From Amoebophrya sp. A120 (Eukaryota; Protista; Dinoflagellata), in NCBI GenBank assembly GCA_905178155.1, contig CAJINV010000004.1, forward strand, positions 5,492,734 through 5,556,733: a DNA stretch of 64,000 nucleotides, written 5' to 3'. This document shows positions 2,164 through 62,629 of the stretch, piece by piece. The position numbers were made by a program, and so were the translations under genes. Below the pieces are notes generated by a model. That model did no database searches. It was not told where the DNA came from and saw only the letters and a program-made list of their open reading frames with translations. Positions within the stretch are counted from its first letter, which is position 1. Each line of letters opens with the position of its first letter.

Positions 2164-5100
2164 ATGTTTTACCCAGACTACGCGTCGCCGACCGCGTTTT
2201 CATCCCATGCGCAGTGCCACTCACAGCCTCCAGAGTGGCAGCTCCGGGACGTGGACGGACGCCGGATTGGGCGACGGCCGGTTTTCAACAAGCACGACCC
2301 GAACACCCAGCGACGGTGGTTGGAATTGCAGCGGGGGCTGGTGAATGAACATGCTGGTGCGGAGGTCTTGCTTCCTGCCGTCGGGGGGCCTGAACGAGTG
2401 GACGCCGCAAGTGGAAGAAGATCTGTTTTTACGCAGTACGACGAGAAAGGAGGTGAGGACACTACTAGATCGGACAAGGATTCTGCTTTCGTGACAGAAA
2501 ATTACGGGACCCGCGCGACGTGTCTCAGTCGTAGTAGAGGTAAACCTCCTCCGTCTGCCGACGTACTGGAGAAAGCGGGGTTTGATACACGGCGATTTTG
2601 TTTGCGTAGAAAGCCCGACGATGATGGGCAGCTGCAGGAGGCTACCTCCGGAAATAAGAGCGTGCTGCTGGAAGAGCAGGTTGTTCCCGCTGTTCGTTCC
2701 AGTGCGGGTACGACTACACAAATCTTCGCTGACCAGCCGAAGCCGGAATTTTACGAAACGCCGGACGATGTTGGGAGTATCAAATGCAAATATGTCTGGG
2801 TCTGGAAAGTTGTAATGCTGAGCGGGGAGTAGTGAATTCTCGGCAATGCACAGCCAAGCATGAGAAATATTTGCGCTGCTTAGTATTGCCTATTGCGCTT
2901 TCCGCATGAAAAACTGCGCTTTGCATGACAAGCAGAAGGGTCCCTTCTTGGGCGCGCATCACAAACTCTACAGTCATGCCAGATAAGCATGACAAATCTT
3001 GCAATCTTCCAGACCCAAACAAATTTTTGCATTTGACAGGGAGGCCGCGGTTGCGATTCACCTCGCTCTTCGAGTCGGGCAATCTGGCTTACGCGACAGA
3101 GACGACAGAAGGGGGCTGCAGTTCACCTAGAAGTCGTCCCGCACCGACGCAGGAACAAGTGGATCTTCGGACCACAAGCAGAACCCGTGGCGCTGCAGAG
3201 CCGGACCATGGCGGGCCGCTGCGGTGCACAACGCAGCCTTTATCATCTGGGGGCACAGCTAAAAGTAGTGCTGCGAAAAGCAGCAGTAGCAGCAGCAGCA
3301 GCCCAAAGACGGGGAAAAAAGCGCGGTCAACAGGAGCACCACCAGTTGGCTCTTCTACTAGCAGTACTGACCGACAAGAAAACAATTTTCACCATGAGAA
3401 GTTGTATTCGCCACCGGCCGTCGAGGTCGACCCAGACCACGGTGGCGCGGCAGGAGCCTGCAATTATGTGGACGGACAAACAAGTGGGCAAACGCAAATT
3501 CCTCCTGATCCAGATGGTTCATTTGTAGCACGTGCGAGGACGTCTTCGCCTGTGGACCTGCAGTACGACCTCTACCTGGACTACGACCTCGGAACTAAAG
3601 GGTATACCCAGTGGTTTTACTTCGCCCTGCAGGGTGTGAACGTCAAGCGCGGGTCGAGGATTCGCCTCCGGATCCGGAACTTGACCAAGGTGTCCAAGAT
3701 GTACAGCCGGCAGGATCTTCTTCTGGATGGTAGAGACCGGCGCACCGGCCCGACGGGGCAGTCACCTCCACACGGCGTCGGACCAGCTCCTGCTGGTACT
3801 GCAAGAGGAAGTAGTGATAAAGATGCTAGCAATGTCGCTGGACGAGCAGCTTGTTCAGAGGAAAATGCAAGGGCAAGCACCCAACAACAACAGCAGAACC
3901 TCCCTTCGACTGCACCTTTTTATCGCCACCCAATGACACCGGTTACCTGGAGCTACGCGATGCCCGAGCTCGGCTGGACAAGAGGGGCTGCGAATATAGT
4001 GGTACAGCCTAGCTACGGGACCGCCACCGCTCCGAGCAGCGAAAGGGCGCGGGGTCGAAATTCTGGGGCGGGTGAAACCCCTCTGGTGGCGGTGCCGGCC
4101 GTGACTCCCTGGGTGAATCACGACGTAGCGTTGTACAACGCATACTGCAAACATCTGGACCTGCTGCAAGAGCAAGATGCAGAGTCTAATCATACGTTGA
4201 ATGCACGAGGACCTGCTCAGATGAATTATACTGTTTCAGCATCAAATGCTTTTGCTTGTTCATCAAGTACTAAGCAGAGTTCTTCCGTACCTCGCACGAC
4301 GAACCGCCAGAAGGGACGGGATCCGCGAAACTGGACCACGCTGCAGTTTGACTACCTGTTTGAAGCAGACGACGACACCGTGGCCTTTGCCTTCCACTAC
4401 CCCTATACCTACACGCAGTGCCGGGAGTGGTGCCGGGAAATCTGCAAGATCGTCAAGAAACGCGAGAAGTCTTCGTCTTCCTGTTTAGTGCGGGACGAGG
4501 ATCATTACTGTCCTGGTAGTGCCACTGCCAGCAGGTCTAGGCATGCTGCTCAAGGCCACCCCGGAGGAATAGGAAACACGAGCAGTCGTGGGGCAAGCCG
4601 GGACAAATCTGGTGCGCTGGTGACGGCGTGCAAAACGAATTTGTGTAGTAGTACGACCACACTGACAAACCACCGCGCTGCTGCGCCCGGTACTTCTACA
4701 ACTAGAAGCTTCCAGCACACAACTTCCCCAACATCCCCACCTTCGCAGAGGAAATTTACCTCATCTATTGCGGAACCACAAGTGAAGACCACGGTCAAAC
4801 TCCGGACTCTGTGTCACACGCCGAGCGGATTGCCGTGCGAGCTGTTAGAGATCAGCGACGACGTTGTTCTGGACGAGTTTGATGGAAGTAGATCTGGGAC
4901 GAGGAGTGCAGAGAGTTCTTCCGCACAGAAGGTGAAGTCCTCTGCCAGGGAACAAGACCGGAGACCGTTTATCTTCGTCAACGCTCGTTGTCATCCGGGG
5001 GAAACCAACAGCAGCTTCATGCTGCAGGGCTTCGTCTCCTGGCTGTTGGGGCTACATGTTCCAAGCGAAAATTGTGGTGATGAAGGTAGTACGGACCCCC

Positions 5101-8100
5101 GCACCCTAGGTGGTGGCTCCACCATCTCTGCAGCGGAACTGCGGCGGAAATTTCGCTGGTTCATACTGCCCATGCTGAATCCGGACGGCGTGGTCGCGGG
5201 GAACACGCGGTGTTGCCTCTCCGGCTTTGACCTCAACCGCAGCTTTGCGCACCCGCACAAGCAGCTGCAGCCGACGGTCTGGGCGCTGAAGCGCCTTTGG
5301 CGCACTTTGGTGGTGAAGGAAAAGCGCAGGTTTGCGTTTTTCTTCGATTTTCACGGCCACGCAAACAAGGAGGGCGTGTTTTTCTTTGGAAACGAGCCGT
5401 CTTGTAGTAGTTCCTTCGGGAGTGATGTTGTAGAACCTTTCAACGACGCAGGGAGTAGTTGTACCACTAGTGGTCTTTGGATGAACAACCTTATTTCACC
5501 TTCCACGGCAGCAGTTGTTGTGTCCTCTAGTTCATCTGCGGCCAACAAGCAGATTCTCGGAGGGGTTGGAGCACAGAGGCATGGTTCACCAGGAACATTT
5601 TCAAATGGCGGAGTTGCCACAACTGCTGCCTCATCTTCTCATCACTTTCGGGGAGGCTTGCGGGACCCGAGCGGAGGGCGGTTAATATGCGGAAGTACAA
5701 CAAGAAGTGGTACAAGAAATCAGCAGAAGGAGAACCATGGAAATAATAAATCCGCCTCGTCTGGCGCAGCTTCGGAGGTCGCAGCATTTTCATTATCGGC
5801 ATTCTCATCATCTTCCGCTACACCGCCATCCGCTTGCGTGTCTGCCGCACTGCTGAGCGCCCGGATCCGGCTGTTGCCGACTCTGGCAAGTTTTGCCTCG
5901 ACCGACTTCGTCGCGGGAAGCTGCGCGTTCGAAAACAAGCCGGGAACCGCGAGATTTGTGGTGGCCGCGGAGTTCGGGTGCTTTTTCAGCTACACTGTAG
6001 AAGCGTCGTTCTGGTGTATGGACGTGGCGCAGAGGCGGCTGGAGGACGAAAGAAAGGCTTTGCTTTTTTTCGGCAGTCACCGCACCGATCTTCGCGCGAG
6101 CGCCGCTGGGCGAGTCGACCAGCGAGCCTTTGATACAGGCCCTAAAACCGCGGAGCAGGGGGATGGTACAACTACCACAGAAGTCCAAGCCGCGGGCGTG
6201 GGGAGCCGGCGGGTTGCAGCTCCGGCGCCGCAAGAATCACTATGCCTTCAGGCCGGAGTGACGACGATGCGTTCAAGTTCATCTCGCGAAGATGCTAGGA
6301 GCCCGGACGGTGGTGAAAGAGGAAAAGCGACACCAAGAAAGGAATGGGCCGCTGCAGTACAAGGGCTACCTCGCGAGCAGGAAAACGAGGAAGCAGCTCC
6401 ACACAGTGTTACTGTACCTCCTTGCGGAGGAGCGCGGGCAACAGCGGCGCAAGTTGTTGCAAGTGTAGACCTATGCATTGCAAAAGTATCGTACTAGTAG
6501 AAATAGCATGACAAGTCTTGCCAAGAAAGAAAGGGGAATTTGTAATGCTGATTTACCTAAGATCGGAGATTTGTCATGCATCATTGCGATTACTATCAGT
6601 GCGATGCTTTTGCAATGCATAAGGCCCGCCGATTGATGTTGTTCCGGCAGCCGAGGTCCAGCGGCTCAAGTCCGCCAAGGCGGCGGAGCGACGGGCCCGG
6701 CTCGCGGTCCGCGAGGAGCGGGTGGAGAACATCCGCATTATGCAATTACAAAAGTAGCGTACTACGTATGAATTGCATCACAAATAATTTTTGCTGTAAA
6801 AGGAACAGGAAGTAAGAAATTTGTAATGCTGATCAGGAGATGAAAGGACAAGGAGGTTTCGTTTGTAATGTAGAACCCGAACTACGTGGGAGTACGCTTA
6901 TACTTTTGCAAACCATTCGCCTGGTGTTGCGGCAACTGCGGCTCGGGGTGCCGGTGGCCCGGTTGCCGGAGGAGGTTCCCGTCGCGGAGCTGGACACCGT
7001 GAACAAGGTGCTTCTGGAGTTGGATCGACGGGCGGTGCGAAGTTTTATGAAAGACCACCCGCAGCCGGACCGAGAACATCAACTTGTGTTTAACAAGAAC
7101 GGGCAGGATGAACAGGTGGAGCTTCTTGACATACAGATTCCAAACACGAGTGCTGCAGGAGCTCCACTCGTGGTCCGCCTGGCCGACACGCAAACGGTAT
7201 CGCCGACGGGTGGTTGTGCAACTGCAAGAACCTCTATGCAATACAAATTTCCCGTACATGTACAAGATGCATCACAAAGTTCACCACTCTGGGGCGTAAA
7301 ACTTGTCATGCCAAACTAGGATCGAAGCCAAGTTTTGTCATGCAGAGACCGCATTTGTACGTGTACAGGAAATTTACTGTGGATAACCTCTCAGTGGATC
7401 GACTTGGACACCACAACGAACTCCCCCTCGAGCGGGGCGACGATGAAAAACTCCAATCACAAGCACAGAACTACCTCCTCTGCTGCAGATAGAGATGCGG
7501 CCAGCTGCGCGACTGAGAACATCAAGCGAGACCACGACGACACTGATTTAGAAGCAACACTAGCGGGCTGCAGCGAGTGGCTCCGGTCGAAGCACGTGGA
7601 AAGTTTAGGGAAACCGACGTTGCCGCGCCCGTATTTATTGTGTGATAGGGACGACGTCGAAAGCACACCACTGGTGGGCCGCGAAGACGAGGGCTTATTT
7701 CATCTTCCGGCATTCGAAGATGCAACGGAGCAGTTAGTGAAAAGCCAAAACATCTACTTTTCGCCGCACCGGTTAGAATCTGTGGGAACAGCGTTGGGCC
7801 ACGCTCTGGCATCGTTCCTGCAATGCACGGATGTTGATCAACAGTACGAGCGAGGAACGACAAAGGAAGGGAAAAAAGTAGATGCTCCGCAGGTGCGAAT
7901 GTTGGCAGAGAAGCGGCTGGAGGAAGCGAAGTTGGTGGTTGGGGGGAGCAATAACAACGACCGAAACGACGAGAACTACGGCCATCTCGGAGTCGTACAC
8001 GACCACGATCGCAAAGTAGAAGTCGTCTCAAAAAAACACGACGTCTGGGCGAGCTGCGAGGAGAAACTGCAAGACGCGTGGAATGCTGCGCTCGAGGACT

Positions 8101-11100
8101 ACTTTCTGACTCTTCCCGCCGACCACCGAAAACGGGCACTGGCGATTGCGCGAGCAGGAACAAATTGTTCTGCAGAAGAACTTGTTCGTCCCACCGCGAT
8201 AAATCATCGATCCGTCGAAGTAGATTATATCAGAGTCGCAAACAACACTCGCGGTCGTGGTCAACAAAATCGTACATCACAGGTAGACCAAGCAACTCCC
8301 GGCAGCGTGGGCAATTCTACTATTTCCGCGCCCGGAGGAGCAGTTGTACTAGATTCCATTACACGCACGACGTCCAGCAGCGCCGCGCCGAACCAGGGCG
8401 GCAGCAGTGCGGGGCCCGGGACGGGTAGCTGTGGAACCGTTGTGTACCGCAGCAGCAGTACTAGTAGCAACCACGAGACCAGCTGCACCACGGGGCCGGT
8501 GCACGGGGCGGGGCGCCTCGTGGGGTACCGCGCCGTAGGGTCCGGGTACGGCCGCCCCGCGAGTGTCGCCTCCGCGGCGTTTATCAGATGTAAAAATGTC
8601 TGGGTCTGGAAGAATGCAGCTTGTCATGCTAATTCTGAAGCATGCAAAAATCTGTGTTGCATGATTACCAAAAGTCGTCCAGTTTTGACCAAGTCGGGAG
8701 GGAGTTTCTCATGCAGGATAGGCATGAGAGAGATCGCACAGAATCTGTCGTGCTAGGTCCTGCATTCCAGACCTCATGGGTCATGGAAAAGCTGCATGAC
8801 AAATCGCGCATTCTTTCAGACCCAGACACTTTTGCATTTGATAGCGTTGCGCGGCGCGGATGATGCGTGCTCGGTGGTGAGCGGTTATCAAATGCAAAAA
8901 TGTCTGGGTCTGGAAGATGGTCATGCTTGTCTGGCATGACAAAAAAGTTTGTGATGCGTGTCCAAGAAGAGACCTTTTTGCCTGTCATGCAAAAACGCAG
9001 TTTCTCATGCGAAAAACGCAACACAAAGAAGCGCAGATATTTCTCATGCTTGGCTGTGCATTACAGAGCATTCACTATCCCCAACACAGCACTACAAGTT
9101 TCCAGACCCAGACGTATTTGCACTTGATAGTGGTTACGCGACGACCATCGCGGGGGGCGGCGGGGGATTTCTGTTGCATCATGGGGACCACGACGAGAGG
9201 AGGTACTATCACGACACATATGTTTTCGAAGACCACGAGAATTTTTACGGAGTAGAACTGCATCAAGAAGCACAGTCTCTCTCTCAGCCGGGTGGTGACA
9301 GAGAAATGAAGCGGAAAACACCTCGTCAGGAAGGTGAGGTGCTAGTATCTTCGCACGGAAGAAACAACTTTTCTTCCACGACAACTAATCCGGTAAGCCA
9401 CGTAAACTCCAATTCGTCTGCCTCATCGGGTAATATTCAAACCTCCTCGGAGGACGAAAATGGAACAGCGTCGAGAGAGCAGAAGAGCTGCTGCCCTACT
9501 GCGGTGTTGCCACCACTCCCGCAGCCCTGGATGATCGCCTTGGCCGCGGAATACAAAACTAGTACCAGACAAGAAAATTGTAACAGCAACGGGCGGCCGC
9601 TAGATAAAGCGCAAGCGGTTTCTTGTTTGCAACGACCCCTAGAACAAGTTGAACACGGCGGAGCCCTTATCTCTTTAAACCGGCAAAGCTTCGAGAACAT
9701 AATCACGTTGGAAAATATTCTCCTGCGGCAAAATGACCTAGATTTCGAACCGCTGTACTTCTTGACGGGAAGATCATCCTTGGCGGGAACAACGACCTCG
9801 CTGCTTCGGAGTGCGGCTGTGAAAGCCTTCGTGGAGCAAGTGAACGGGAAAAATATTAAAGACGGGAGCGGTGTTTATAATTTTGCAGACCTTTTTTATT
9901 CTTCTCCAGTGGGCAGCGATGTTGCTGTTGGTCTCGGCGGAAGGAAAAGTAGCGCAACTACAAGTTCTTCTACTGAACAACGTTGTAATTATTCTTATCC
10001 GTCATCGAACAATTATCCGGGGGCGCAAATCAGATCGACCACTGCGCCGACTTTTCCGCTTGGTCGCGCCGACGTCGTCGGGCCGTTTCACAATCGAGCG
10101 GAATCGGACAGCGAGGAGGACTCTCGTGAGGACGGACAGGAGGGGTTGCGTTGTTTTGAAGACAAAGATGCAGCTCTGGGGAATTATGCTGGTGGTTACA
10201 AGTTGCATCACAACAACCTAAGCAGGAGGCCAAGGTAATTTATTCTACAAAAAATCTTATTCATCTGCTAAATTAAAAATTGAACGAAAATTTTATCAAA
10301 CTGTGACGTAGTCTCTTGCACTCTTTTTCGTTTTTTCGATCCCTTCAGCTGTCTGCACAGTCGTTCCACCAATTTTTTTCCCATGACATCAGGTCAGTGC
10401 AGCAGTTTCGCAGAAAGGCTCCGCTAATCCAACGCGAAATCTGCTTTTCGCCGCCAGATTTAGAAGAAGTGACGTCTTCAACTACTACGCAACACGGGGA
10501 AAAAATAGCGGCGACGGTGCGTAGAACTTCTTCTGCAAATGCAACCAATGATGGCTGCTCGAATGAACAGCCTGAGCAGGTCTATTGTGTGGAGAGACCA
10601 CGAGGACAGGCGCAATTATCGGGCAGTAGTGCAAGTATTCATCAAAACCCCGATATGATTTTTGCCAATCGCACGACCTCCGCGTTTGAGCCTGTGTCAC
10701 GAAAAATCCACCTGCAGCCGAAGCTCCCCGTGCAGAGAAGGCGTGGTCATGATGAAGACGACATCAAAGCAGGGGACTTCTCGCTTCAAGATTTGATGGA
10801 AACAGGAAAAGTGATTAAAGCGGTGGAGAAGAAACAAAAAGAAGCCGTGGCTGCTGGCGCACCAACATCCCGGGTGGACGACGAGGTGCAAGAACATCAA
10901 AAGCTCTGCTCCTCCTCCCGCAGAATTGTCGAAGCCGCAGCTGGTAAAAATTGGGTTCTAGATCCGAAGTCGCAGCATGTTAGTATGGTACAGAAGCAGG
11001 CACAGGAACTTCGGTCGCCTCGCTCCAAAAAAGGAGATCGTGAGAAGGGCCATCAAACAGAAAGTGGTAGTAGAAGGCGAAACAAAGGAGAAGCACGGGT

Positions 11101-14100
11101 CGTGCCAGGTGGTCATGACGAAGAAAAAAGTGGGTGGGGGCTTTATCGTCCAGAACAAGAAGTGCTAGTAGATCATGCGGCCCCGCCCGCGCCGAAGAAG
11201 CTCCATGACGTGCGCAATTTGCTGCTCCTGAAAGAGGATCTGGAGGAGCGGAAAGTTTTGTCGCGGTTGTACGACGGGCTAGCGGAATATGAAAGTGCAC
11301 AACTCCCCCTCTCCCTCATTTGTATTGCATGAACAGCAATACAAGGGTCAGCAAGAATACAGGCTTAACAAATTTGGACAGGAGTGTAGGGCTATTTGGG
11401 CTTCCAGAGCTTGTCATGCAAACAGTGCCAAAAGCCAAGGCGTAAATTAGGTATTTTGCATGACAAACGACGGGGAGGGGAGTTGTGCAGTTTTATACGG
11501 AAGCGATCGTGAATGCGGATAGGAAAACTCCGGGCATTTTTGCGACAAATAAGCAACAGCAAAATGAGTATGCGACCTCCACTGCTCTCGATCTTTCGTC
11601 GGCTCCTTGCAAGAGAAAAGAAGTAGGCAAGAGAACAACTTCTGGGACCAGAACAGCAGGAGTTCCTGCCCCGAGGATGAAATCTTCCGAAAACAGAAAC
11701 GCGGGGGTCGACGACCGTGGTGCCCACAGCGAGAGTAGTGACTTCGGGGTGGATCACGTTGACACAATCGACGAAGAAAGCTGCGAAGGTCTTGCAAGCG
11801 GTTGTTCGCACGAGGATGGCAACGCAGGTGAGGAGCAAGACAGATCACACGATCCGGACATGATCTTCAGAGATGAAGTAAAAAAAGGGCAGGACGTGCT
11901 GAACTCGTGGCTCGGGGACTTCGCGCTGCCCATCGACTATTACAATGAAAAATGCCCCCACCCCAGAACTTGGCGCATTTGTGTTGCAAACCTTTCCAAT
12001 GGAAACACTCCCTGTGTTGCATGTATCAGCATCACAAATTTTCCATGCTGAATACTAGCTCAAATTTGTGTTGCACAGGAGCCCAGCAGCAGCCAGATCT
12101 GTTATGCAAAAGCTACCGTGCGTGCCTAGATTCCACATCACAAAGGCTCCTAGTCCTTTCATGCAAGACAAAAAGCTTTCATTTGGAAACTTTGCATAAG
12201 AAACTTTTTCAAATTCCGGGGGGGCATTTTTCATTGTAATATCGACCCGCGGGCATTCGACCAGTGCCTAAAGGAGAATTTTGCGGCGCAAGTCCATCAT
12301 CAGCGCCGCGGCGCGGTGGCCAGCACTTCGGATCGTCCCGGGGCGGAGAACGCGAGGTGTTTATTTTCTGGCGCGAATCAGTACAGCCACCCGTCCAGGA
12401 ATTTGCTGCTGCTGCCCAACGTCGTGCGCATTCTGGGGCGCAACGAGCGGAAAGAAGTAGAAGTGGCTGCTGGAGCATCAAGACCTTCTTCGGCACAACG
12501 ACAGGGCGGCGCAAAGCAGGAAGTTGTAGATGAATCTGCCAATAACTACAACTTCGGCAACATCACGAGCCGTAAAACGTCGGCTTTCCCCCTGTTGCAG
12601 GAGAAGCGACAGAAGCTGCGAGACGCCTTCCTTGCCTGCGGCGGCGCGCAGCAGCGGGGAGCGGCGGTGATGCCGGCGGCAAAGCCCGGGGTGGTAAGGA
12701 GGAAAGAACCGGGTCTACGGGAAAACAAACTGTACGAAGAGTTGCGAAAAGCCGGGTCGTCGTCGTGTGTAGTGGTGGAAGGCGGAGATGATGAGACCAC
12801 AAAGGCAACATCAAACAAGGCACGCACTGGTGCACGCGTGCCAAGTACAAGAAACCAAGGAATAAGGATGAACAAAGAGAGCCGCAATTCTGCCTACAAC
12901 AGCATCCCGGTCGCCGTGGACTCTGACATCGTAGGACAGTCGTGGAGCAGTCTGACACGACCGAGGAAGACTACGCACGTAGCCGAGGCCAAGAACAGTA
13001 CCAGCTCAAAGGTTCTTCTTGGAACGAAGGGCGGGAAAAGCGAGAAGGACGCCGACGCCGTTACAAGCAGCAATAACGACTTACGCGGCGCGCCGTCGGC
13101 GCAAGACGGATCTGACGGGGCCAAGAAGCGGGAAGTAACCGAAAAGGCAGGTCACGGTGGTTGTTCGCAGGAGTTAGAACAAAGGGCAGTTCGTCCTGCA
13201 CCAAATCTGACCTCCGCGCCAAGAACTTCATCTTCGCGACCTCTTCCTCACACGATCCACCTGAATCGCGCAAGACCCTCCTCTGCGCCATCGACCTGTT
13301 GGATGCTGTGGGATGAGCACGAACCAGGGCGAAGACTAGGGCGGAAGACCTGTGAGGGTGAAAGTGCAGTAAACGAGGAAATAGATGTAGATGTGGTTGA
13401 AACTACTTCTAAAACTTCCGGTGTAAAACTCGCGGAGAGTAGAGACCTGCAGAGCCTGCTGTTCGTGCGTCGGATTCCCTTGGACGTCGACTCGGGTAAT
13501 TGTAGAAGCAGTCAAGAACACCATCACGCGGCAAGAACATCTTCTGGCCGACGTTTCCACCGAGAGAGCACCACGGGGAACAACAACATCTTCAGTAGAA
13601 AAGACAATTCGCGGCCCTCTACCGCACCGAGTGGCGGTGAAAAGCTCTTCTTGCAGGTGGATTTGTTTTCATCCACGCTCGGCGGAGGACAATCGAGTAG
13701 TTCCGGCAGGAATGATGGTGTTGAAAAAACTTCCGGCTCTTCTTGTGGTGCAACAACGTGTGATGTTCCGCATCATGATGATCGGCCAGCTGCACCTCCT
13801 CTGGTACGCCTGCTGCCCTACAAAACCTCGGTCCTCCGCGGCTTCTCGCAGTGGAATGACAAGTTGTGGACGCCTTTTTTCCCCAGCCAGAAAAGCAACC
13901 CGCTGCGACGGACGGAGGGGCTAGAAATTCGTGCGGAGGAGCGGCCCTTCGTCGTGCCGCCAAACTCGCCGCGGGGAGAGGGAGAAGAAGCATGCTTGGG
14001 AGGAGATGCAACGGCGGGTGGAGCTAGCCCCGGGAACAAGAAGGAGACAGTCGATGAGCTTGAGCAGCAGGAGAGAAAGCGGTACCCTTTGTCTCCGATC

Positions 14101-14118
14101 GTTGTTTTGTGGCAATGA
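2164..14118 (+). CDS. Cytosolic carboxypeptidase (M14D, CCP/AGBL/Nna1 family tubulin deglutamylase) with very long low-complexity insertions and C-terminal extension; ~10 exons
   Basis: Family motifs FESGNL, YTQWFYF, FAFHYPYTY, ARCHPGETNSSF (Zn ligands H..E), PMLNPDGVVAGNTRC, DLNR, DFHGH and SYTVEAS. Frame is continuous after removing 8 introners and one probable GT-AG intron (10235-10392). That intron and the start codon are less certain. Confidence 0.85.
2778..3038. mobile_element. Introner family A
   Basis: TIR TATCAAATGCAAATATGTCTGGGTCTGGAA...TTCCAGACCCAAACAAATTTTTGCATTTGACA; TSD GGGAG; opposite orientation to its relative at 8886-9129. Confidence 0.92.
6472..6621. mobile_element. Introner family F
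   Basis: TIR TATGCATTGCAAAAG...CTTTTGCAATGCATA; TSD AGACC/AGGCC; frame restored. Confidence 0.85.
6739..6917. mobile_element. Introner family F (degenerate)
   Basis: TATGCAATTACAAAAGTA...TACTTTTGCAAACCATT; TSD CGCAT/CGCCT; frame restored (ENIR|LVLRQ). Confidence 0.7.
7235..7385. mobile_element. Introner (F-like)
   Basis: Imperfect TIR TATGCAATACAAATTTCCCGTACATGTACAA...TTGTACGTGTACAGGAAATTTACTGTGGATA; TSD ACCTC. Confidence 0.85.
8582..8843. mobile_element. Introner family A
   Basis: Family A TIR; TSD GCGTT; internal sequence is the reverse complement of 22621-22881 and 62369-62629. Confidence 0.92.
8886..9129. mobile_element. Introner family A
   Basis: Family A TIR; TSD GCGGT/GTGGT; very similar to 25232-25490 and 52406-52657. 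Confidence 0.92.
11288..11497. mobile_element. Introner family B
   Basis: TATGAAAGTGCACAACTCCCC...GGGGAGTTGTGCAGTTTTATA; TSD CGGAA. Confidence 0.9.
11938..12241. mobile_element. Introner family C
   Basis: Perfect TIR TATTACAATGAAAAATGCCCC; TSD TCGAC; related to 27777-28079. Confidence 0.92.
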
Positions 14119-14984
14119 AGGGGTGACGTGATCAAGAAAGGAGACAGCACGAGGGGCGTGCGATACTAGTTTTACTTTATCTTGTAGTGGGCAAACAAAG
14201 TGAAATTGTACGATGTGATGTAAAGAGTATGTCCTGTACGAAGAAGTTTGTACATACAGCCGCATTCTTGATCATGAAGCACGGGCTAAAAGTACGAGAA
14301 TACTCAAGTAAAAGTAACATTTACCATGCGTTGTAAGATGAATTTAAGTGATGCAATCAGAATCAGTGCAATGCGTCGTTCAAGTCCCGAAGAAAGTACG
14401 AATTACCTGCCTCAAGTGAGTGCAAGCATGCAAGTGATATAACCGAGCAAAATAGAGTGTAGAATAGGCACCCACATCGCAGACTGTGTGTCGGAAAAAT
14501 GCAAATCTCGACAGAATTTCAAAAGCACGACGATGGGCTGAAAAATTGTTTTTACTTTTGTTTCGTTTCGGCACCAGATGCGCGGCTGCGGCTGCTCCGC
14601 GCAATATTATCGTATCGCACAACATGCATGCAATTATATCACAGAGGATGAAGATCTTTCGCTGTTACAGACTCCTGTCCGTCGCCAGACTTCGTTCGTA
14701 CGTACACAGGGGAGCGATAATGATAAAAACGGCTGCATGGAAATGATTCAATCGATCCGCGGCACTAAAAAGCGTGAAGAAAATGCTGAGAGAGGAGCTT
14801 GAGGAAGACGCTGCGAGCGTGCATAGATGTTCTTTCCTCCTGGGAAGAGGTAAGCGACCCTCACGATCAGGATCGATCTCGAGAAGGATCTTCTTCTAGT
14901 TTGTGCCAAAGCCCGCGCTCTTACTTACGCTAACCATATTAACCAAAAGTAGACAACGTTTTCGGATAGCGCTCGTTGCTCCTC

Positions 14985-15602: not shown

Positions 15603-16442
15603 GAGCAGGGGATAATCGATGAAATCGTGAGTAAGTCCTTCCTATCGTCCTCGAGAAGCCAATTCGAACCACCAACATTGACGAAGCAAGAACTTACGTG
15701 CAAAAATTTCGTGAAGATCAGCAACGCTTGGACAGCAACGTGAAAAACAGGTGGGGACTTCCAGACCACGCAAGAAGTGATGATGGATTAGGCAGTAGGA
15801 CCGCAGTACACGAGTAGTAAATGAGAACATGTTCCACCTCTTATCGTAAATGAGTAAATTCCAGTACTTACGATCATGTGGTCATTTGTGTCGATCAAAC
15901 CTTGGTGTGATCAGTACCAAAGTGATGAAGCTGTGGCACGGAGGAACGCTCAGATCAAGATCCCAGTTCTCGTGATGGAAGGTGTGACTGTCTAGAATTC
16001 CGAAATCCAGCACGATCGTCTCTTTGGATCTGCCGAAGAACATGATGCAACGAACGGGCGTAGCGGTGGGCATGTAAATGCGTGACCCTGCTGGACGGTT
16101 CTATTCTTCTTAGCCGTAGAGCGATTGCGTCAGAGGACTGGGCTGGCACAATTCGCAACGAGTTGCTGTATCAAAGTTTTCTCACCACTGATGCAGGCTA
16201 TCATATATTCTTATTAGTAGTAAGTGTCTCGGCTTGCGAGATAATTGACAATTTCTTCAGTACCGTATAGCTCGTCGAGCAGTTCTTTTCATTACGCTTT
16301 TATCGCGCTTTTATTGTATTTGTAGCAAGCATAAGAAGCCCCAATAGTTTTACACCCACCTTCCTCCCACTACTTTCTGCCATCCTTAGTACACCTTACT
16401 TTATCGCATCGGCGTCACCAACACAGTCACAATTACCTCACA

Positions 16443-17057
16443 ATGCCCGTCGTGAAGCAGGCGCACCCCTTGCACCTGCGCGGCCTGCAGTGCCGCACCC
16501 GCAACGCTGATGAGCTCGCGGGGAAAGGGCAGATTGGCGCCTTGGTCGGCAAGTTTTACACCGAGGACATCGCGAACGAGAAAACTACAAGCCGTGTGAA
16601 TCCCGGTGTTGTGTACTGCGTGTACACAGACTACGCGTCGGACGAAACGGGGGACTACACGTTCTTTATCGGCGAGGAAATTGCGGCGGCCAGTGTCCCC
16701 ACCAACTTTATTGCAGCCGATTCCGTGGGGGAGCACCAGGGGAAGGGGGAAGTGGAGAAAAAAGATGTTGGTCGTCGCGTGAACACCGTGCAAGAGGAAA
16801 TGAATAAAGATGGAACTACGAGTGCTGGTAAAAAGAACGTGATTGCCTACGTCACCGTGGAAGCTGGTTTGTACGAGAAGCGCGTCTCCGAAAAGGGAAA
16901 ACTGCCGGACTGCGAAGTTGCCTTGTGGAAGCAGATTTGGGGCGATGCGGAGTTGAAGGCGCGGCGCGCGTTTGGGACAGATTTCGTGGTCTACGACAAA
17001 TTGAATCCGGCGGAAGACACGGAAATTCCCATTTTCCTGCAACTGGCAGCTGAGTAA
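16443..17057 (+). CDS. GyrI-like small-molecule-binding (AraC effector-binding/Cass2-like) domain protein
   Basis: Motifs GLQCRTRNADE, IGAL..KF, YCVYTDYASDETGDYTFFIG, AGLY, LWKQIW and RAFGTDFVVYD match the bacterial stand-alone GyrI-like family. Intronless, with a ~40-aa insertion. Confidence 0.85.
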   Translation: MPVVKQAHPLHLRGLQCRTRNADELAGKGQIGALVGKFYTEDIANEKTTSRVNPGVVYCVYTDYASDETGDYTFFIGEEIAAASVPTNFIAADSVGEHQGKGEVEKKDVGRRVNTVQEEMNKDGTTSAGKKNVIAYVTVEAGLYEKRVSEKGKLPDCEVALWKQIWGDAELKARRAFGTDFVVYDKLNPAEDTEIPIFLQLAAE

Positions 17058-18218
17058 TTATCTGGGGCGTCAGTGTGAGGAGGAGAGCAGGGGTGTTGCT
17101 AGGAGTGAGGGGAAAGGAGGTGGCTGTTGGTGTTGACCACGAACTCGAGGGAGAAAATAATGTACGCAAAGAAGTACTAGTACTAACTTGAGGACACCGC
17201 GCGGCAGCACATTGCTGGAGATATTTCGGCACAGATTTCGGAGTTGGAAATGCAGAAGAATGGAAAAAGTGAACCGCTGCTGCAAAAAGATGAAATTGGA
17301 TAGTTCCAGAACCTAGGAACCTTATCTTGGCATTCGATAGAAGACCTACTTACTACGCTTGGAAACAACTGACCTCTGGAATATTATAGAAAATTACTTT
17401 ATCGGCAAGCATTGGTATCACCTGCAAAAATCCACGATGAGTGCAGTGGATTCGCAGGGTAGACCGTCACACTGTAGTTCAATATGAGTTGTAACATACA
17501 GCTTTTTTTCTTCTTGTTTTTAACATTTACTACGAGAACTGCCAGGGCACTTTGTTTCACTACACCGTTGCAAGGGCAAGCAGCGAGGGGGATAACCAAT
17601 GCGCCGCATTAGAAGCTGCTGCAAAGCCAACGCCACACGGGGTCTCACGAAGGCTTGGTGGAAGAAGGTGATCGGCTTTTCGTTTTCTATGTTTTTCTTT
17701 TGACGTTTTGACGCGACATTAACACGGCAAAGAGGCCAATATACTTGATCTGGAGGACGAGATGGAGCTGCGCGCGCTTGGGAACGAAACTGCGTTATTG
17801 AAAAACCATCAAGGCAAAAATAAAGATTCCCGTCTTCTAGACGTTCGGAATTGCATAGATTTTCTAAAGTAGCTATGGTGTTCGTCTATCTGGTCTAGAA
17901 AAGTGCACCACGGCCACGATCTTTGCTCGTCGGAGATTAAAAAAACAGGTCAGATACTTTGAAGTAGGAGCTGCGATCATCAAAAATTCCAACCACTACA
18001 TAAACGAAGATCCATCCGTTTCATTGCTAATATCGTTTAATTTTTGGTACAGCGATCGATTCACGGTAGAGATTTTATACATCGACTAAGCAAGGAGAAA
18101 CTCCGGACAGTTTTTTACTTGTACCTCTACAAAGGTGCTGAAAGCTTAGAATAAAAGGCTTTTTTTCTTTAAATTCTTGTTCCGTATAATTTACAGAAAA
18201 AGAAACAGCCGAGCGAAA

Positions 18219-18512
18219 ATGTCGCGCTTTTCATCCCTCCTGCTTTTTTCTCTGCTGCAGCTTTTCGCGCACTACAGCTTCACCGTAGCGGAGGCCGGGC
18301 CTGCAGCGGCGGTGGTGACTTATGGTGTCTGTCAGACAGGCTGCAACACGGCCTACGTGGCTTGTTGCGCAAGTGCAGGAACGGTTGCGGGCACGTTCAC
18401 CTTGGGCCTCGGCATCCCCGCGGCGATCGCTGCCTGCAGTGCGGCGCAAGGGGTGTGCATGGCGGGGTGTGCCGGAATGACGGTGGCAGCGACCGGAGCG
18501 CCGACGCCGTAG
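18219..18512 (+). CDS. Small secreted Cys/Ala-rich protein (resembles the 'zygote-specific class V'-like family of fungi, algae and oomycetes)
   Basis: Signal peptide followed by GP..YGVCQTGCN...VACCASAG...GT.T.G.GIPAAIAAC.AAQG.CMA.C...APTP, the family pattern as I recall it. Confidence 0.75.
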   Translation: MSRFSSLLLFSLLQLFAHYSFTVAEAGPAAAVVTYGVCQTGCNTAYVACCASAGTVAGTFTLGLGIPAAIAACSAAQGVCMAGCAGMTVAATGAPTP

Positions 18513-19893
18513 AGAAGAGACCCGCAGCCAAAGCTGGGACACCAGGGAGGGCTTGCGCACACAAAGAGACCCGAGATGGTCGGGGCTACATGTATTGATC
18601 AATGCTGAAGTTCTGAGTTTTTGCAAAGGCATATAAAAAGTTGGTAGTTTCAGCAGGAGTGATGTCAACATACAAGAAGGAGGAAAAGCTGTTAGCTGTA
18701 AATAGCACAAAACGCCAATCGAAACTTGACGCGTCATCCGCTTCCAGGGCGGACTCATTCTAACTTCACAACTGGCGCAGTCGCATTCTCATTCCAAATG
18801 TCAGAATTGATAGAAGATTTTCACCTATGCATCATTCGAAGTACGGAAAGACAATAGACTTTGACCGCACAGAAAGTTACAAGCGAGAACTCTATTGTGC
18901 CGCGACAGTGAGCAAACCTTCGTGCAGGTACTGTCTGTGTCTGTTCAGCCGTTCGCCACTGTCGGGGACAGCGCGAAAAAGAAACACCTCCACGTCGGTA
19001 GGCCTGAACGTGTTGATGCCCGACCTTATTTCGAATTCGACAAGGATCTCTCTTTGACATTGACTTTATAAAGGTTTGCTGTGCGAGCGCCTGTGCGGAT
19101 CTAGCTTTTAACGCCGTCAGAATTTTTTTTCTCTGATCAAAATCTTTGTACTCCTACTTGTCTAAACTATAAAACGCGCTGCGCCAAGCGTGGTTCGTCG
19201 TCGTGCATACAAGTAGATCTAGAGATTGTTTAGTGGGGGCTCACAAGTGGCTCGAGATCTCGCTTATCGCATCGAATTAGCACATTATTATAGAATTTTT
19301 TGCCTAATTTTCACTTGTTTTTGCCTTGCGTGCACGCCAATTGATTTTGCGTTTTTTCCCAATCAAATCAAAACACCCCAGTCAGAGCGAGGAATATATA
19401 TGGGCCTAAATTGGTTCTTCCCCAACTCTTGATTCTGCTTTTTCAATTATTGTCCGCAAAATCGAATTCTCGGCAACGTATGTAAAGTGCATTGTCCAGT
19501 CTGCGTTTGTTTTTTCGAACAAGTAGAACTTCAACTGAAAATAGACCTTTATTCTTTTCATTCACGACTACCGATAAAACACGAACTGCAACAGGTGCTA
19601 CAGCAAGAGTCTAGTACTCAAGCTCAACACAACGCTTGCGGTGTTTGTTATAAATTATACTAACGTGTACTATTAAAGACCTGACCAAAGTAGAAGCTTC
19701 TTCTACCTGTACCTCCTGTTTCCGTGCAATAAAAATCACACCATGACTCGCAACCCTCTAATAGAATTGATAGCCGGAAAATTTCCCCGGAGACCTTCGA
19801 GGGACCGATGCGCGATAATTTGGCAAACGAAGAGCCTCTGAAAAGTAGCTTCCGAAAAGTGCATCTGAGGTGCATCTGAGATGAAATAGTGTT

Positions 19894-20760
19894 TGAAAAG
19901 CGGAAAGTCGCTAGCGAGAAAAAATTGAAATTCTCGAAAAGTGAAAAATCAGTGATTTTTCACTCTCTGAAAATTTTCTGAAGTCGATGGAGCGTGCACT
20001 CTTTTCAGGTTGACAATTTTCGAAAAGTGGAAATCATTTAGGAGTGAAAAAGCACTGACTTTCTACTTCTCAATGATTTCCATTCTGGAAGAGTGAACAC
20101 GGCCTCGACTCCCGAAAATTTCAAAAAGTGAAAAATCACTGACTTTTCACTTTTTGAAAATTTTCACACACTCTGAGAAACGCGGCTTTGACTCCAAAGT
20201 GAAAATGTTGCAAAAGTGAAAAATCTTGCGAATTTTCTGGAGTCGAGGCTCCACAGTGAAATTGTTTCAAAAGTGAAAAATCAGTGATTTTTCACTTTTT
20301 CGCGTTCAGTCTTCTCAGAGTGAAAATTTTCAAAAAGTGAAAAATCACTGATTTTTCACTACTTTTCTCGAAGGTACCCGTGGCCACGAAGGCCTTCGTG
20401 ACAACGGGTACCTTCGAGAAAAGTAGTGAAAAATCAGTGATTTTTCACTTTTGAAAAATTTTCACTTTTGAGGCGAAGCCGCGTTTCTCAATTTTTTTCA
20501 AAAGTGAAAAGTCAATTATTTATATTTTTCACTTTTGAAAAAAATTGAAACTCACTGTGGGGCCTCGGCTCCAGAAAATTTCCAAAAAGCGAAAAGTCAC
20601 AACTGATTTTTCACTTTTTCAAATTTCTCACTCTGGAGCCGAAGCCGCGTTCACTCTTCCCAGAGCGAAAATTTTCACAAAGTAAGAAGTTAATGACTTT
20701 GCACTTTTGAAAAATTCCCACTCTGGAGCCGAAGTTGCGTTCACTCTTCCCAGAGTGAAG
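19894..20760. repeat. Large imperfect palindrome (foldback) built from self-complementary AAAAGTGAAAAATCASTGATTTTTCACTTTT units
   Basis: Centre GAAGG|CCTTC at 20392/20393; ~70-bp near-perfect inner arms; matching blocks continue ~300-400 bp outward (e.g. 20231-20280 vs 20525-20580; 20088-20112 vs 20635-20660). Confidence 0.9.
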
Positions 20761-21333
20761 CAAGGCCGTTTGGCAGGTCGGCAAGTTTGTGAAAGCGCCT
20801 CAAGCTGCTCTTCCGCGATTTCTTAATTATGATCGAGCTGTAGGACGAGGCTTTGAGTTAATTTGAGCAGCGGCTCCTGTTCATGCGATGAAGCTTCAGA
20901 TTTGCAGTGTCCCTCCGATCCTCGCATTGTTGGAAAGGCTTTCTGAGTCTCAGACGAACGAAAAAGCGCGTACAAACTATCGAACTTGCGCGATTTTTGT
21001 CCCTCGAAGTCGTTCGGAGAAGTTTTCCGGCGAAGAGGGGGGGGCTTTTGCGAGTCATGAATCACACCTTATGTCGTTTGATAACTTTATGGCCCCACTG
21101 CATCCTGCAAACGACCTGTGCTGACTTCATCCCTCCGGGCCTGTGTCGACCGATCGGAAAGAGCAGCAGAAGCAGTGTTTATTGCACTTACCTCACATAA
21201 TCTTATTTCCTTCACTTCACCTTTACGCGGACTAACACCTTCGCTACTTGCATACTGCAATTATTGCATCACCACCTTTTTGAAGCGGCAGCATCTATCT
21301 GTTCCAGGCGATCTATCTGAATATAGAAAAAGA

Positions 21334-24300
21334 ATGTCCGCCCCAGTTCCACAAAGAAACGCGGCTTTTGCCTTCACAGCCGCGTGCTGTTTTCTCAGCA
21401 GCACCGCGGTCGTCCTTGGCGGCAAAGTTGGCAGGACAGCAAGCGGGCCGACACCGCGCACGATCCGAAACCCGCGCTTGACGAAGGATGTTGCAACTAC
21501 ATCGCGGAGCACAGGAGGAGCGGCCTCTTCAGGCTCTACTGCAGTAGATCACGAGCAAGAACACCCTCTTCAGAGCAATGTCGCACCCGCCGGGCGTCGT
21601 CGCACGCAGCCCCACCAGCAGCACAAGCCGAAAAGTGCAGCAGTCTATGCGAGTTCCACCGCTGCGTCGGCGATGGCCGCAGCGGTAGAGGAGGAGAACC
21701 TTGCAGTTGGCAATTACAGCCTTAACATTATCCCTGCTTCCGCCAATTATGCTGCCACGAACGACGTCGGCGCTCCCTCGTCGGACAGCAGCGCCGCCGC
21801 AGTTCAGACGCCGCCCCAAGTAGGAGGACCGCTGCGAGGAGGAGGACGCGCGGCGAGCAACAAATGGCCTGTTGACCTACAACCTTTACCAACTACTGGA
21901 GGACAACCCGAGGACCCCGCAATGCAGATTCCGCTACAGGCACACCAACTGCCACAGCTCCTCGTCGCGCAAGATACTTCTAAACCGACGTCGGTGCACC
22001 AGCTGGACCCTCACCGGGTCGCGGCTGGACACCAAGAACACTCCTCGCCGCAGCAACACGCCTCCGCGCTGCCGGTTGTTACGAACGACCTGCGAAACAT
22101 GCGCCGGTTTTTACCAGCGCATGCGCAAACGAAACAGCAGGAGGAGCGCAAGGACCTCTCTGGCATGATGCAAGAGCTGGCGGAGCGGAGCCAGGCTTGG
22201 CTGAAGAACCCTGAAGCAAACAACTACTTCGATTATGTGCCGGTGGACGAGAGTCAACATGATGCAAAAAAATGGTACCATGAGATGACTCTGGAGTATG
22301 AGCTGTCTGAGCCCACATCTTATGGATTGTAAAAGTGTCTGGGTCTGAGAGGTTGGAACTTGTAATGCTAGCTTTCCATACCTAGAAAATCTGTATTGCA
22401 TAACCAACAAAAGTCGCAGACCCTTTTGTACATGCAAAGACGCAGCTTCTCATGCGGATTTCCTATGAGAAAGCGTTCTGGAAAGTTGTCATGCTGGGTT
22501 GCATTCGGAACTGTTTCCATCATCCACCTTTTAGCATCACAAGTTTCCAGACCCAGACATTTTTGCAATGCATACATCTTCCTTGCCAGACGAGGCTTTG
22601 GAACTGCCCCCGGCCGCCGATATCAAATGCAAAAATGTCTGGGTCTGGAAAAGTGTAGGCTTGTCATGCAGATTTTCCACTACCCTTGAGGTCTGGAATG
22701 CGGGACTTGGCATGACAGACTCTGCGAGGTCTCTGCCATGCCTATCCTGCATGAGAAACTCCCTTTCAACTTGGTCAAAAGTGTACAGCTTTTGGCACTC
22801 ATGCAACACAGATTTTTGCATGATTCAGATTTACCATGACAAGTTGCAATCTTCCAGACCCAGACATTTTTGCATTTCATAGCCGAAACCCCACTACAAC
22901 AGCAGCAGAAAAATCAAAACCAGAAGTCGCCCTCGTTTATGCCCTCGGATATGCGGTTTGACGAGCGTGGCCTCGAACCGCAGCTGGTGAACGCCCTGAG
23001 CCAGGCTTTGTCGCCGCAACACACGCCGTATCACTGTGCACAACTTCCCCTCTTCCTCATTTGTCATGCAAAAGCCCAAATCCAAATGCTTCCCTGCGGC
23101 ACTGTGTGCATGACAGATTTTTCCGGAAGCCCAAACAGTACTACACTAGGCGCATAAACTTGTCATGCACAGGCTCCACGTGTGCTGGTGTGTGTATTGC
23201 TGTTCATGCAATACAAATGAGGGGGAGGGGGGGTTGTGCACTCTCATACGCCGATGAGTCTTGGCGGGATCAGCAGGACCAGTCCGGCGGCCTCCAAATA
23301 TGCGAGTCCGGCGCAGGGACCAGTGATGTTCTGGCCCGGCGCGGGTGGTGGATTTCAGATTTCCTCGAAACATTCCAGTCCGGCGCAACGGCCAGCCCAC
23401 CTGAATACTCCGCCGCCGCCGGGGCTGCCGCCTCCGTCGCTCCGGAGTCGATTCCCCTTGTCAACGGGGTCGCCGCAATCGACAAACGCGTCACCGGCAC
23501 AAGAGTTGGCTTTTGGGGGTGGATTGGAGGACAAGGAGGAGCTCGAGTTGCTGCAGGCTTTCTCGCTGGGGGGCGCGTTTTCTCGGGCCACCAGTCAAGA
23601 GGCAGACGAAAGTGCGGAACAACCAGAACGCCAAGTCGGTGCGTATGCATTGTGAGAGTAGTTGTATATCGAAATGGCATTTTTGCAAGTGCGGTGATGC
23701 TTATGCAGGTTATCATGCCTTAAATTTTGGCAAATAAAAAATGGCGACTTGTAAAGGAAAAATATACAACTTGTTGTCAAGTAGAACGAAGTACCAGTAC
23801 GAGTGCGATTATACAACTTGTTTTGCAATGCATAGTGCAGATGTTGATCAGATGTCAATTGGCGTGCCGTCTAGTATGCAACAACACCCTGCGTGGACGA
23901 CCACGACGGGGCGAGATTTGAAAACTACTTCGGGTTTTAGCAGCTTGTGCCGCGGTGCCTCCGGTAGCTTTGACTCCACCGTCCGCTCGCCTAGTGCCGC
24001 CACGGCCAGCACTCTGACGCCCGTGCCTTCGCTGCCAAAGGTGGCGTCCTGGTGCACCACCACCAGCGACGGAGCAACGGATCAGATGTTTGCAGCATCG
24101 AGCACCAGAACTCCTGTTGGCAAGGGGAATGCCGTGCCGCACAGCCAGCGCTCCTCGCCGAAGCAGAAGCCCGCTGCTTCTAGCGGCAAAACCGCCGGGG
24201 CCTGGGGGGCGGCCTATAGTTCTACTGCTTCGTCGCAGAGTGGTCCCGTCATGACAGGATCTTCCGACACTACAATTACACCGAAGGCGCCTGCTCCGCA

Positions 24301-34247: not shown

Positions 34248-34276
34248 TCTTGTCCTTTTCTCGCTCGCTCGGCACA

Positions 34277-62351: not shown

Positions 62352-62368
62352 AGGTAAAAATGTTAACC

Positions 62369-62629
62369 TATCAAATGCAAAAATGTCTGGGTCTGGAAAA
62401 GTGTAGACTTGTCATGCAGATTTTCCATGACCCATGAGGTCTGGAATGCGGGCCATAGCATGACAGACTCTGCGAGGTCTCTGCCATGCCTATCCTGCAT
62501 GAGAAACTCCCTTCCAACTTGTTCAAAAGTGTGCCGCTTTTGGCACTCATGCAACACAGATTTTTGCATGCTTCAGATTTACCATGACAAGTTGCAATCT
62601 TCCAGACCCAGACATTTTTGGAATTCATA
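62369..62629. mobile_element. Introner family A, probably in the 5' UTR of the GcvT-like gene
   Basis: Family A TIR; TSD TAACC. Excision does not put the upstream ATG (62691) in frame, so it is placed in the UTR. Confidence 0.88.

What the first reader, a model, noticed from the sequence alone, without database searches (positions are those of the whole stretch)
2778..22881. The same introner works in either orientation, implying structure-defined splicing
Seen: 2778-3038 is the reverse complement of 8886-9129 within the same + strand gene. 8582-8843 is the reverse complement of 22621-22881, and both lie in + strand genes. Spliceosomal signals (donor, branch point, pyrimidine tract) are directional. 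Inference: the symmetric TIR stem (or a protein binding it) plus the direct repeat define the junction.
Basis: partly seen in the sequence, partly recalled or inferred. Interest (0 to 1): 0.8.

Follow-up and report, generated by a model that had tools for sequence, protein, structure and literature searches.

The report
Two-way hairpin introns lacking splice signals
Short transposon-like inserts with mirror-image ends sit in this protist's genes forwards and backwards about equally often, lack the normal intron end letters, and are likely cut out of the RNA either way; they match a known odd intron type, and the data point to a likely cut position and a one-way signal that make its unknown removal mechanism testable.

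Summary
Observation confirmed, inference only partly. Both pairs are reverse complements at family level (80% and 85% identity) and lie in + strand genes; removing element plus one 5-nt direct repeat restores 2272-aa and 845-aa frames. The elements match the published Amoebophrya A120-type introners. Across 263 copies (34 in the window, 229 from one related public assembly) orientation relative to the gene is random (407 same, 380 opposite pairs; 21 of 27 families both ways). GT-AG fits only 9 of 200, as on the antisense strand. But the ends are palindromic, so either orientation shows the same 5' UAU and 3' AUA: orientation cannot separate structure from sequence reading, and either-orientation introners with spliceosomal ends are published. 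Tests for selection on an RNA stem were null or inconclusive. One-way signals exist instead: the sense 5' UA never varies (0 versus 7 changes), and three junctions put the cut after repeat base 3 or 4. Best reading: hairpin-assisted but directional splicing, with a G-less donor (nUA) and a 3' cut set by distance. RNA-like contigs show exact removal of three neighbouring copies; the four named copies were not covered.

The parts
2778..3038 (.). Introner, family A, minority orientation; 5-nt direct repeat GGGAG at 2773-2777 and 3039-3043; 3' end ACA instead of ATA
   Evidence: frame restored only by the L+5 class; hairpin z -4.4
8886..9129 (.). Introner, family A, opposite orientation to 2778, same gene
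   Evidence: 80.2% reverse-complement identity; z -7.2
8582..8843 (.). Introner, family B
   Evidence: z -11.9
22621..22881 (.). Introner, family B, opposite orientation to 8582
   Evidence: 84.7% reverse-complement identity; z -9.3
62369..62629 (.). Family B copy 94.6% identical to 22621 on the + strand but at the 5' end of a minus-strand frame: the closest opposite-orientation pair in the window; the frame test does not discriminate here (L+4 ties L+5)
25232..25490 (.). Family A copy, same orientation as 8886
52406..52657 (.). Family A copy, same orientation as 8886
57845..58120 (.). Family C copy, opposite to 58899 in the same minus-strand gene; 2 extra bases in the sense 5' arm
   Evidence: 75.8%
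58899..59160 (.). Family C copy
56145..56412 (.). Copy opposite to 59243 in the same minus-strand gene
   Evidence: 77.1%
59243..59524 (.). Copy opposite to 56145
288..555 (.). Introner skipped exactly (273 = L+5) in RNA-like contigs; repeat GGGCA/CTGCA, upstream bases 1-2 kept
600..814 (.). Introner skipped exactly (220 = L+5) in RNA-like contigs
873..1070 (.). Introner skipped exactly (203 = L+5); repeat TGGTC/CGCTC, upstream bases 1-3 kept
11288..11497 (.). Distant, opposite-orientation relative of 600-814; a contig piece stops exactly at its boundary with 43 letters left over (indirect sign of splicing)
2143..10236 (+). Host gene 1: 2272-codon frame with a zinc carboxypeptidase (M14) domain, six introners (2778, 6472, 6739, 7235, 8582, 8886); may continue through a GT-AG intron to 14118
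21085..24568 (+). Host gene 3, first part: 845-codon frame with CCCH zinc finger, four introners (22321, 22621, 23029, 23644)
56019..62698 (-). Host gene 5: 1212-codon frame with glycine-cleavage T domains, eleven introners

Best explanation
These are short inverted-repeat, transposon-like copies that sit in genes in both orientations about equally, and they are likely spliced either way because their mirror-image ends give the RNA the same 5' UAU, 3' AUA and predicted hairpin in both directions. Steps: (1) shown: about 28-nt terminal inverted repeats, a 5-nt direct repeat of free sequence, random orientation; (2) inferred: DNA transposition made the repeat and the random orientation; (3) predicted: arms 8-28 pair and bring the ends together, standing in for end-finding by U1, which was not detected in Amoebophrya; (4) inferred from small counts: the machinery still reads the RNA one way, needing U-A at the 5' end and A three bases from the 3' end; (5) inferred from three junctions: the cut falls after repeat base 3 or 4, most simply base 4, so the intron would begin n-U-A-U like a GUA donor without its G and end four free bases after AUA, set by distance and not by AG; (6) shown for three copies: exactly element plus 5 nt is removed, restoring the original sequence. 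The catalyst is most likely a modified U2/U6 spliceosome (untested).
For: Random orientation: 407 same and 380 opposite pairs, 21 of 27 families both ways; 203/197 in the stricter set. Symmetric arm profiles. Repeat exactly 5 nt: 238 of 316 perfect, at most 7 of 316 for lengths 3, 4, 6-9; base composition like flanking exon. L+5 class uniquely best for 29 of 30 window copies and 98 of 122 decisive locus copies. Exact skips of 273, 220 and 203 nt; record coordinates leave exactly the 93 exon letters between the outer pieces. Directional ends among 263 copies: sense 5' arm changes at positions 1-2 / 3 = 0 / 7, sense 3' arm 7 / 1; Fisher p 0.0014, 0.0047 with two sibling copies counted once; same direction in loci alone (p 0.048) and window alone (p 0.067). 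At these three pairs 9 changes make A.C and none makes G.U (p 0.004), the reverse of what pairing alone favours. Repeat mismatches 26 at position 2 against 7 at position 4 (p 0.0013). Register: contigs keep upstream repeat bases 1-2 (288) and 1-3 (873); keeping upstream base 5 makes a stop in L054_2346. All nine predominant A120 non-canonical sites in Table S4 of PMC7789003 have T at +2, and all nine A25 sites start TT with a free 3' end. TAT positions change at about 0.4% against 5.1% in the interior. Hairpins in all four named copies; pair 12 has probability above 0.5 in 246 of 263.
Against: No sign that the transcribed strand's pairing is under selection: G.U/A.C 184:179 and 71:67 (95% interval 0.43-0.60), sense folds better in 137 of 263, so the hairpin's role is unproven. 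Positions 4-7 of the arms match less often than in within-family permutations (323 against 338). The end asymmetry rests on 15 odd copies, was noticed post hoc, and six of them come from hand-curated window copies. Repeat position 1 versus 5 shows no asymmetry (21:17), and the window alone shows none. The register rests on two RNA junctions from one sample and one stop codon in another assembly, and assumes one register for all copies; a mutation-polarity test gave nothing. No G enrichment at the proposed +1 (83 of 263). Table S4 may reflect aligner tie-breaking: 8 of its 9 A120 sites also fit an L+2 cut, which frame tests cannot tell from L+5. Of 14 locus copies with 2 or fewer repeat matches only 2 favoured L+5. 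No lariat or spliceosome evidence was obtained. X2 and X3 are only guessed to be RNA.
Confidence: 0.5

Rival explanations
1. Sequence only: proteins or snRNAs read the linear motifs UAU-N7-AAA(A) at the 5' end and (U)UUU-N7-AUA at the 3' end. Both are present in either orientation because the ends are palindromic. The hairpin is a by-product of being a transposon.
For: The positions shared by all families (1-3, 11-14) are conserved in sequence, not by covariation. Null G.U/A.C and folding tests. Directional end constraints. A U tract lies at -19 to -15 and an almost invariant A at -7 under the base-4 register. Either-orientation introners with ordinary splice ends exist.
Against: These motifs are short and carry little information for picking exact ends 150-330 nt apart. 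Arms 16-28 differ between families yet match within a copy (0.75-0.91 against 0.34-0.73 shuffled) and change less than the interior (3.2% against 5.1%), though transposition alone could explain that. Copies with 1-2 extra bases between the 5' TAT and the A run (6739, 57845) still need L+5.
Confidence: 0.23
2. Structure only: the terminal stem, or a protein binding it, is cut and ligated at fixed positions without reading sequence directionally, perhaps outside the spliceosome as suggested for euglenid nonconventional introns.
For: Strong predicted hairpins in both orientations; no GT-AG in any register beyond the antisense control (9 of 200 each); no 5-mer of 423 tested has a strand bias surviving correction (best p 0.003); 20 of 24 double changes in arms 8-28 restore pairing; U1 undetected in both Amoebophrya strains (PMC7789003).
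Against: Sense 5' UA invariant while its partners vary; A.C tolerated 9 times and G.U never seen at pairs 1-3. Compensatory excess not significant against within-family permutation (197 of 2000). Positions 4-7 next to the junction are often unpaired. The terminal pair has probability above 0.5 in only 185 of 263.
Confidence: 0.2
3. The copies are not removed from RNA: the genes are dead, or the skipped form comes from DNA of a strain with empty sites.
For: X1-X3 are only guessed to be RNA; an empty site would also look like an L+5 skip; element sequence is abundant in those runs; the four named copies have no listed exon-joining contig.
Against: Frames of 644-2272 codons stay open around 30 inserts. 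Coverage in X1-X3 is patchy by gene, the listed exon pieces have no other letters, and three inserts are missing from one contig. PMC7789003 reports tens of thousands of RNA-supported non-canonical introns of this type.
Confidence: 0.05

Closest known systems
Introner elements of Amoebophrya sp. A120 (Farhat et al. 2021, PMC7789003; sections 10-12 and 16 and supplement passages read, figures not seen)
   Same: Inverted repeat starting TAT, seven variable bases, then at least three A; short direct repeat; non-canonical ends; about 240 nt; many families; predicted hairpin.
   Different: No difference found in the elements.
Either-orientation introner-like elements of Polarella glacialis and Aureococcus anophagefferens (10.1101/2020.10.14.339549, section 5 read; Aureococcus known only through its citation)
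   Same: DNA-transposon-like elements with target-site duplication that form introns in both orientations.
   Different: Those carry or recruit GT/GC/GA and AG-type sites, need particular target sequences, and the simple classes are biased to one orientation; here the repeat is free, GT-AG is at background and orientation is near 1:1.
Euglenid nonconventional introns (PMC6221363 passages; PMC11282704 section 6)
   Same: Non-canonical ends brought together by a terminal stem, repeats at the junctions, probable MITE origin.
   Different: Their conserved pairing is at +4 to +6 with -8 to -6 and junctions tend to be pyrimidine|purine; here arm positions 4-7 are the least paired and junction bases are free. 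Circular excision products were not testable.
Fritillaria borealis non-canonical introns (only as reviewed in PMC11282704)
   Same: TIR and TSD introns with non-canonical ends, removed by an adapted U2 spliceosome according to the review.
   Different: They have preferred ends (AG-AC, AG-AT) and a preferred exon context.

Membership tests
Amoebophrya A120-type introner elements | Inverted repeat TAT + 7 variable + at least three A | tested here: met
   note that the detector used this motif, so only the window census and the frame tests are partly independent of it
Amoebophrya A120-type introner elements | Direct repeat of 3-5 nt at the borders | tested here: met
   5 nt; 238 of 316 perfect; 243 of 327 when the repeat was not used in detection
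Amoebophrya A120-type introner elements | Non-canonical splice ends | tested here: met
   GT-AG in any exact register 9 of 200
Amoebophrya A120-type introner elements | Repeated in families | tested here: met
   27 families holding 202 of 263 copies
Amoebophrya A120-type introner elements | Removal supported by RNA | tested here: inconclusive
   met for 288, 600 and 873 in contigs guessed to be RNA; the four named copies not covered
Amoebophrya A120-type introner elements | Host lacks U1 snRNA | not testable with these tools
   no whole genome held
Polarella/Aureococcus either-orientation introners | Introns in both orientations | tested here: met
Polarella/Aureococcus either-orientation introners | GT/GC/GA-AG sites carried or recruited from a constrained target duplication | tested here: not met
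   (GT-AG 9, GY-AG 13 of 200; GA donors not counted separately, but no register has a fixed AG)
Euglenid nonconventional introns | Stem joining both ends | tested here: met
   predicted only
Euglenid nonconventional introns | Conserved pairing near +4..+6 / -8..-6 and pyrimidine|purine junctions | tested here: not met
   arm positions 4-7 poorly paired; junction bases free
Euglenid nonconventional introns | Excised as circles without lariat | not testable with these tools
   needs intron-product sequencing
MITE (non-autonomous TIR transposon) | TIR, fixed-length target duplication, short, multicopy | tested here: met
MITE (non-autonomous TIR transposon) | Cognate autonomous transposase; empty-site allele | not tested
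   no orthologous locus among the 130 fetched; no genome held

The most novel reading that the evidence does not exclude
A spliceosome without U1 has taken a transposon's terminal hairpin as its intron-definition device: it cuts at a G-less donor (n|UAU read as +1 to +4), may branch at the near-invariant A seven bases from the 3' cut, and sets the 3' cut by distance with no AG. Any insertion at any coding site, in either direction, is then a perfect intron, which would explain how tens of thousands of copies are tolerated.
Probability: 0.3. Interest if true: 0.85.

Novelty: new member of a known kind. Interest (0 to 1): 0.5.

Why it matters
How Amoebophrya removes most of its introns without GT-AG ends and apparently without U1 is an open question in the papers read. 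This work shows that orientation is random and the target site free, corrects the logic that orientation proves structure, and narrows the mechanism to testable points: cut after repeat base 3 or 4, an invariant 5' UA, a near-invariant A near the 3' end, and a hairpin whose necessity is unproven. If the novel case holds, it is a splicing rule that makes any insertion of the element silent.

Tried and rejected
The pattern has no match in viral contigs. There is no RNA evidence for 14401-64000. An L+2 cut making GT..AG at 2778 was considered because all four named repeats start with G; rejected as a general rule since G at repeat base 1 is at background (0.33) and three junctions are L+5, but frames cannot exclude it for the named copies. 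Strand-biased branch words (CTAAC 9:6, CTGAC 10:9) not found. Polarising repeat mismatches by mutation spectrum or codon position gave nothing. A search for canonical introns in the loci was too noisy to give a donor consensus. Protein searches for spliced products gave one distant carboxypeptidase (P0001, no alignment across any element) and nothing for the T-domain gene. Rfam: no match. Pfam did not name the gene at 56-1180; its + strand rests on a 143-codon frame through three junctions. Paper searches (7): Amoebophrya+introner+inverted repeat, introner+either orientation (37, one hit), Amoebophrya+non-canonical introns+splicing (53), euglenid+nonconventional introns+reverse orientation (56, none), introner+both orientations+terminal inverted repeats (58, none), Fritillaria four terms (70), U1 four terms (76). 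None showed a report of orientation for Amoebophrya introners; most subscription papers, including Huff 2016, are not held, and figures and bioRxiv supplements were not seen and may bear on this. Earlier findings of the scan were absent or from other genomes and were not used.
Full report
What is there. The four stretches are real and exactly bounded. Each starts TAT, ends ATA (ACA at 3038), has about 28 nt of terminal inverted repeat and is flanked by a 5-nt direct repeat. The pairs are reverse complements at 80.2% and 84.7% identity, also without their ends (76.8%, 82.8%), far above shuffles. The window holds 34 such elements in my curated list plus a partial one at 1-54. Removing element plus one repeat copy (L+5) opens frames of 2272, 1080, 845, 644, 988 and 1212 codons; for 29 of 30 copies tested this frame class is uniquely best and for one (62369) it ties. 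2778, 8582 and 8886 share one carboxypeptidase gene; 22621 is in a CCCH-finger gene. The window has further opposite pairs inside one minus-strand gene (57845/58899, 56145/59243) and a 94.6% identical pair in genes on opposite strands (22621/62369).

What it is. The end motif, repeat and size match the introner elements described for Amoebophrya A120 (PMC7789003; abstract, sections 10-12 and 16, passages and supplement passages read; figures not seen). That paper reports hairpins, variable splice ends, undetected U1 and an unknown border position; its uses of 'orientation' concern genes.

RNA. Of four runs laid on 1-14400, two contig sets from one sample, only guessed to be RNA, skip three neighbouring elements by 273, 220 and 203 nt, each L+5; the record coordinates leave exactly 93 letters for the two inner exon pieces of 37 and 56 nt. 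Two more contig pieces stop exactly at the borders of 11288 and 11938 with 43 and 16 letters left over, which suggests splicing; the joints themselves were not listed. 600 and 11288 are distant opposite-orientation relatives. The four named copies had no listed exon-joining contig, so their splicing is inferred from frames. No RNA was examined beyond 14400.

Larger sample. A 23-base end motif fetched 130 loci from one public assembly, with copies up to 96% identical to window copies and no orthologous locus. Of 316 elements found, 238 have a perfect 5-nt repeat. Gene strand was called from frames for 184 of 291 locus elements, with 249 of 252 within-locus pairs agreeing; 107 were dropped. In 200 strand-called copies with at least 4 of 5 repeat matches or window curation, related pairs were 203 same and 197 opposite, family B split 9:12 and family A 6:2. 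A relaxed set using locus-level strand (263 copies, 229 from loci) gave 407 and 380, with 21 of 27 families in both orientations and family A at 9:2. The repeat has exon-like composition; GT-AG fits some register in 9 of 200, as on the antisense strand. In loci, L+5 was best in 98 of 122 decisive cases; 125 were unclear, and only 2 of 14 copies with poor repeats favoured it.

Does orientation imply structure? No. The two arms have the same profile, so both orientations present the same directional signals. Either-orientation introners with spliceosomal ends are published for Polarella and, by citation, Aureococcus (10.1101/2020.10.14.339549, passages and section 5); one survey searched for opposite-orientation insertions explicitly (PMC9860276, passages), while a later one required the same orientation (PMC12130899, passages). 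What is unusual here is the absence of any splice dinucleotide.

Tests of the stem. All four named copies fold strongly (z -4.4 to -11.9), as any inverted-repeat element must. If pairing of the transcript were selected, G.U should outnumber A.C on the sense strand: observed 184:179 and 71:67 among departures from family consensus in 12 families of 4 or more. The sense strand folds better in 137 of 263. Double changes in arms 8-28 restore pairing in 20 of 24 cases, but recurrent alleles explain most of it (15.4 expected; 197 of 2000 permutations as high; total matches 128 of 2000). Positions 4-7 match less than permuted arms. A long stem tolerates single mismatches, so these nulls do not show the hairpin is dispensable.

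One-way signals. Among 263 copies 15 have an altered end. The sense 5' T and A never change, while their 3' counterparts change 7 times; position 3 changes 7 times at the 5' end and once at the 3' end (Fisher p 0.0014, or 0.0047 counting two siblings once). Nine of these changes make A.C and none G.U. Repeat mismatches fall at position 2 more than 4 (26:7, or 15:5 for single mismatches) but not 1 more than 5 (21:17), and the window alone shows no bias. Detection in the loci was strand-symmetric; these tests were post hoc and small.

Register. At 288 and 873 the two repeats differ and the contigs keep upstream bases 1-2 and 1-3. At L054_2346 keeping upstream base 5 creates a stop. If all copies share one register the cut follows base 3 or 4. 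Base 4 gives an intron starting n-T-A-T, with T and A invariant at +2 and +3 as in a GTA donor (donor consensus recalled), an A at -7 in 262 of 263 and a T tract at -19 to -15. Table S4 of PMC7789003 is compatible (T at +2 in all nine top A120 sites; TT with a free 3' end in A25) but may reflect aligner choices, and 8 of 9 A120 sites also fit an L+2 cut.

Verdict. Known kind of element; orientation independence is real and, in the papers and searches listed, not reported for it. The inference to structure alone is not supported. Hairpin-assisted directional splicing 0.5, linear motifs alone 0.23, structure alone 0.2, not spliced 0.05. Euglenid and Fritillaria comparisons rest on PMC11282704 (passages, section 6) and PMC6221363 (passages); PMC8469720 was seen as abstract only. 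Interest 0.5.

Noticed in passing
all elements, window and loci: A 9-nt motif TTGT[ACG][AT]TG[CT] occurs 2.5 times per element against 0.03 in shuffles, forwards mostly in the second tenth and reversed in the ninth tenth; it may be a subterminal binding site or inner stem.
   Followed up: partly
window 25232 and 52406; arms of the GTCTGGG type: Arm positions 4-8 come as a small set of alleles (CAAAT, GGATT, GCATT, CAACT, CAAGT) that differ between near-identical copies and are not matched between the two arms (16 of 75 same, 19.3 expected), suggesting shuffling of ends.
   Followed up: partly
L031:3097-3376; L076:2085-2443: Two copies have an 8-nt rather than 5-nt direct repeat (perfect; 6 of 8). 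A 5+3 repeat would stay in frame under a fixed L+5 cut, but the frame test at L031 favoured another class.
   Followed up: partly
window 28127-30530: A segment with a Copia-type reverse transcriptase frame (RVT_2, 28163-29722) lies between two copies of a 44-nt repeat at the end of the CCCH gene; the second copy runs into a degenerate introner-like end at 30527. PMC12130899 mentions Copia-like TIR elements in A120.
   Followed up: partly
window about 31700-46900: Large retroelement-like region with an RVT_1 frame (41575-43683, below the curated cutoff) and several unnamed frames; no introner was found in it.
   Followed up: partly
window 19920-20730: Dense cluster of inverted repeats built from an AGTGAAAAATCA-type unit, including a 74-nt near-perfect palindrome at 20319-20466.
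   Followed up: no
window 16443-17057: Intronless frame with a Cass2 (integron-associated effector binding) domain, E 5e-9; possibly of bacterial origin (untested).
   Followed up: no
runs X1-X3 on window 2401-2880, 8161-9120, 11041-11520: Summed contig depth over elements is tens to hundreds while exons are at 0-45; expected from many genomic copies, but retained or stable excised introns are not excluded.
   Followed up: no
window 10235-10413: A GT-AG intron could join genes 1 and 2 into a frame of about 3340-3365 codons, so one gene would mix canonical introns and introners.
   Followed up: partly
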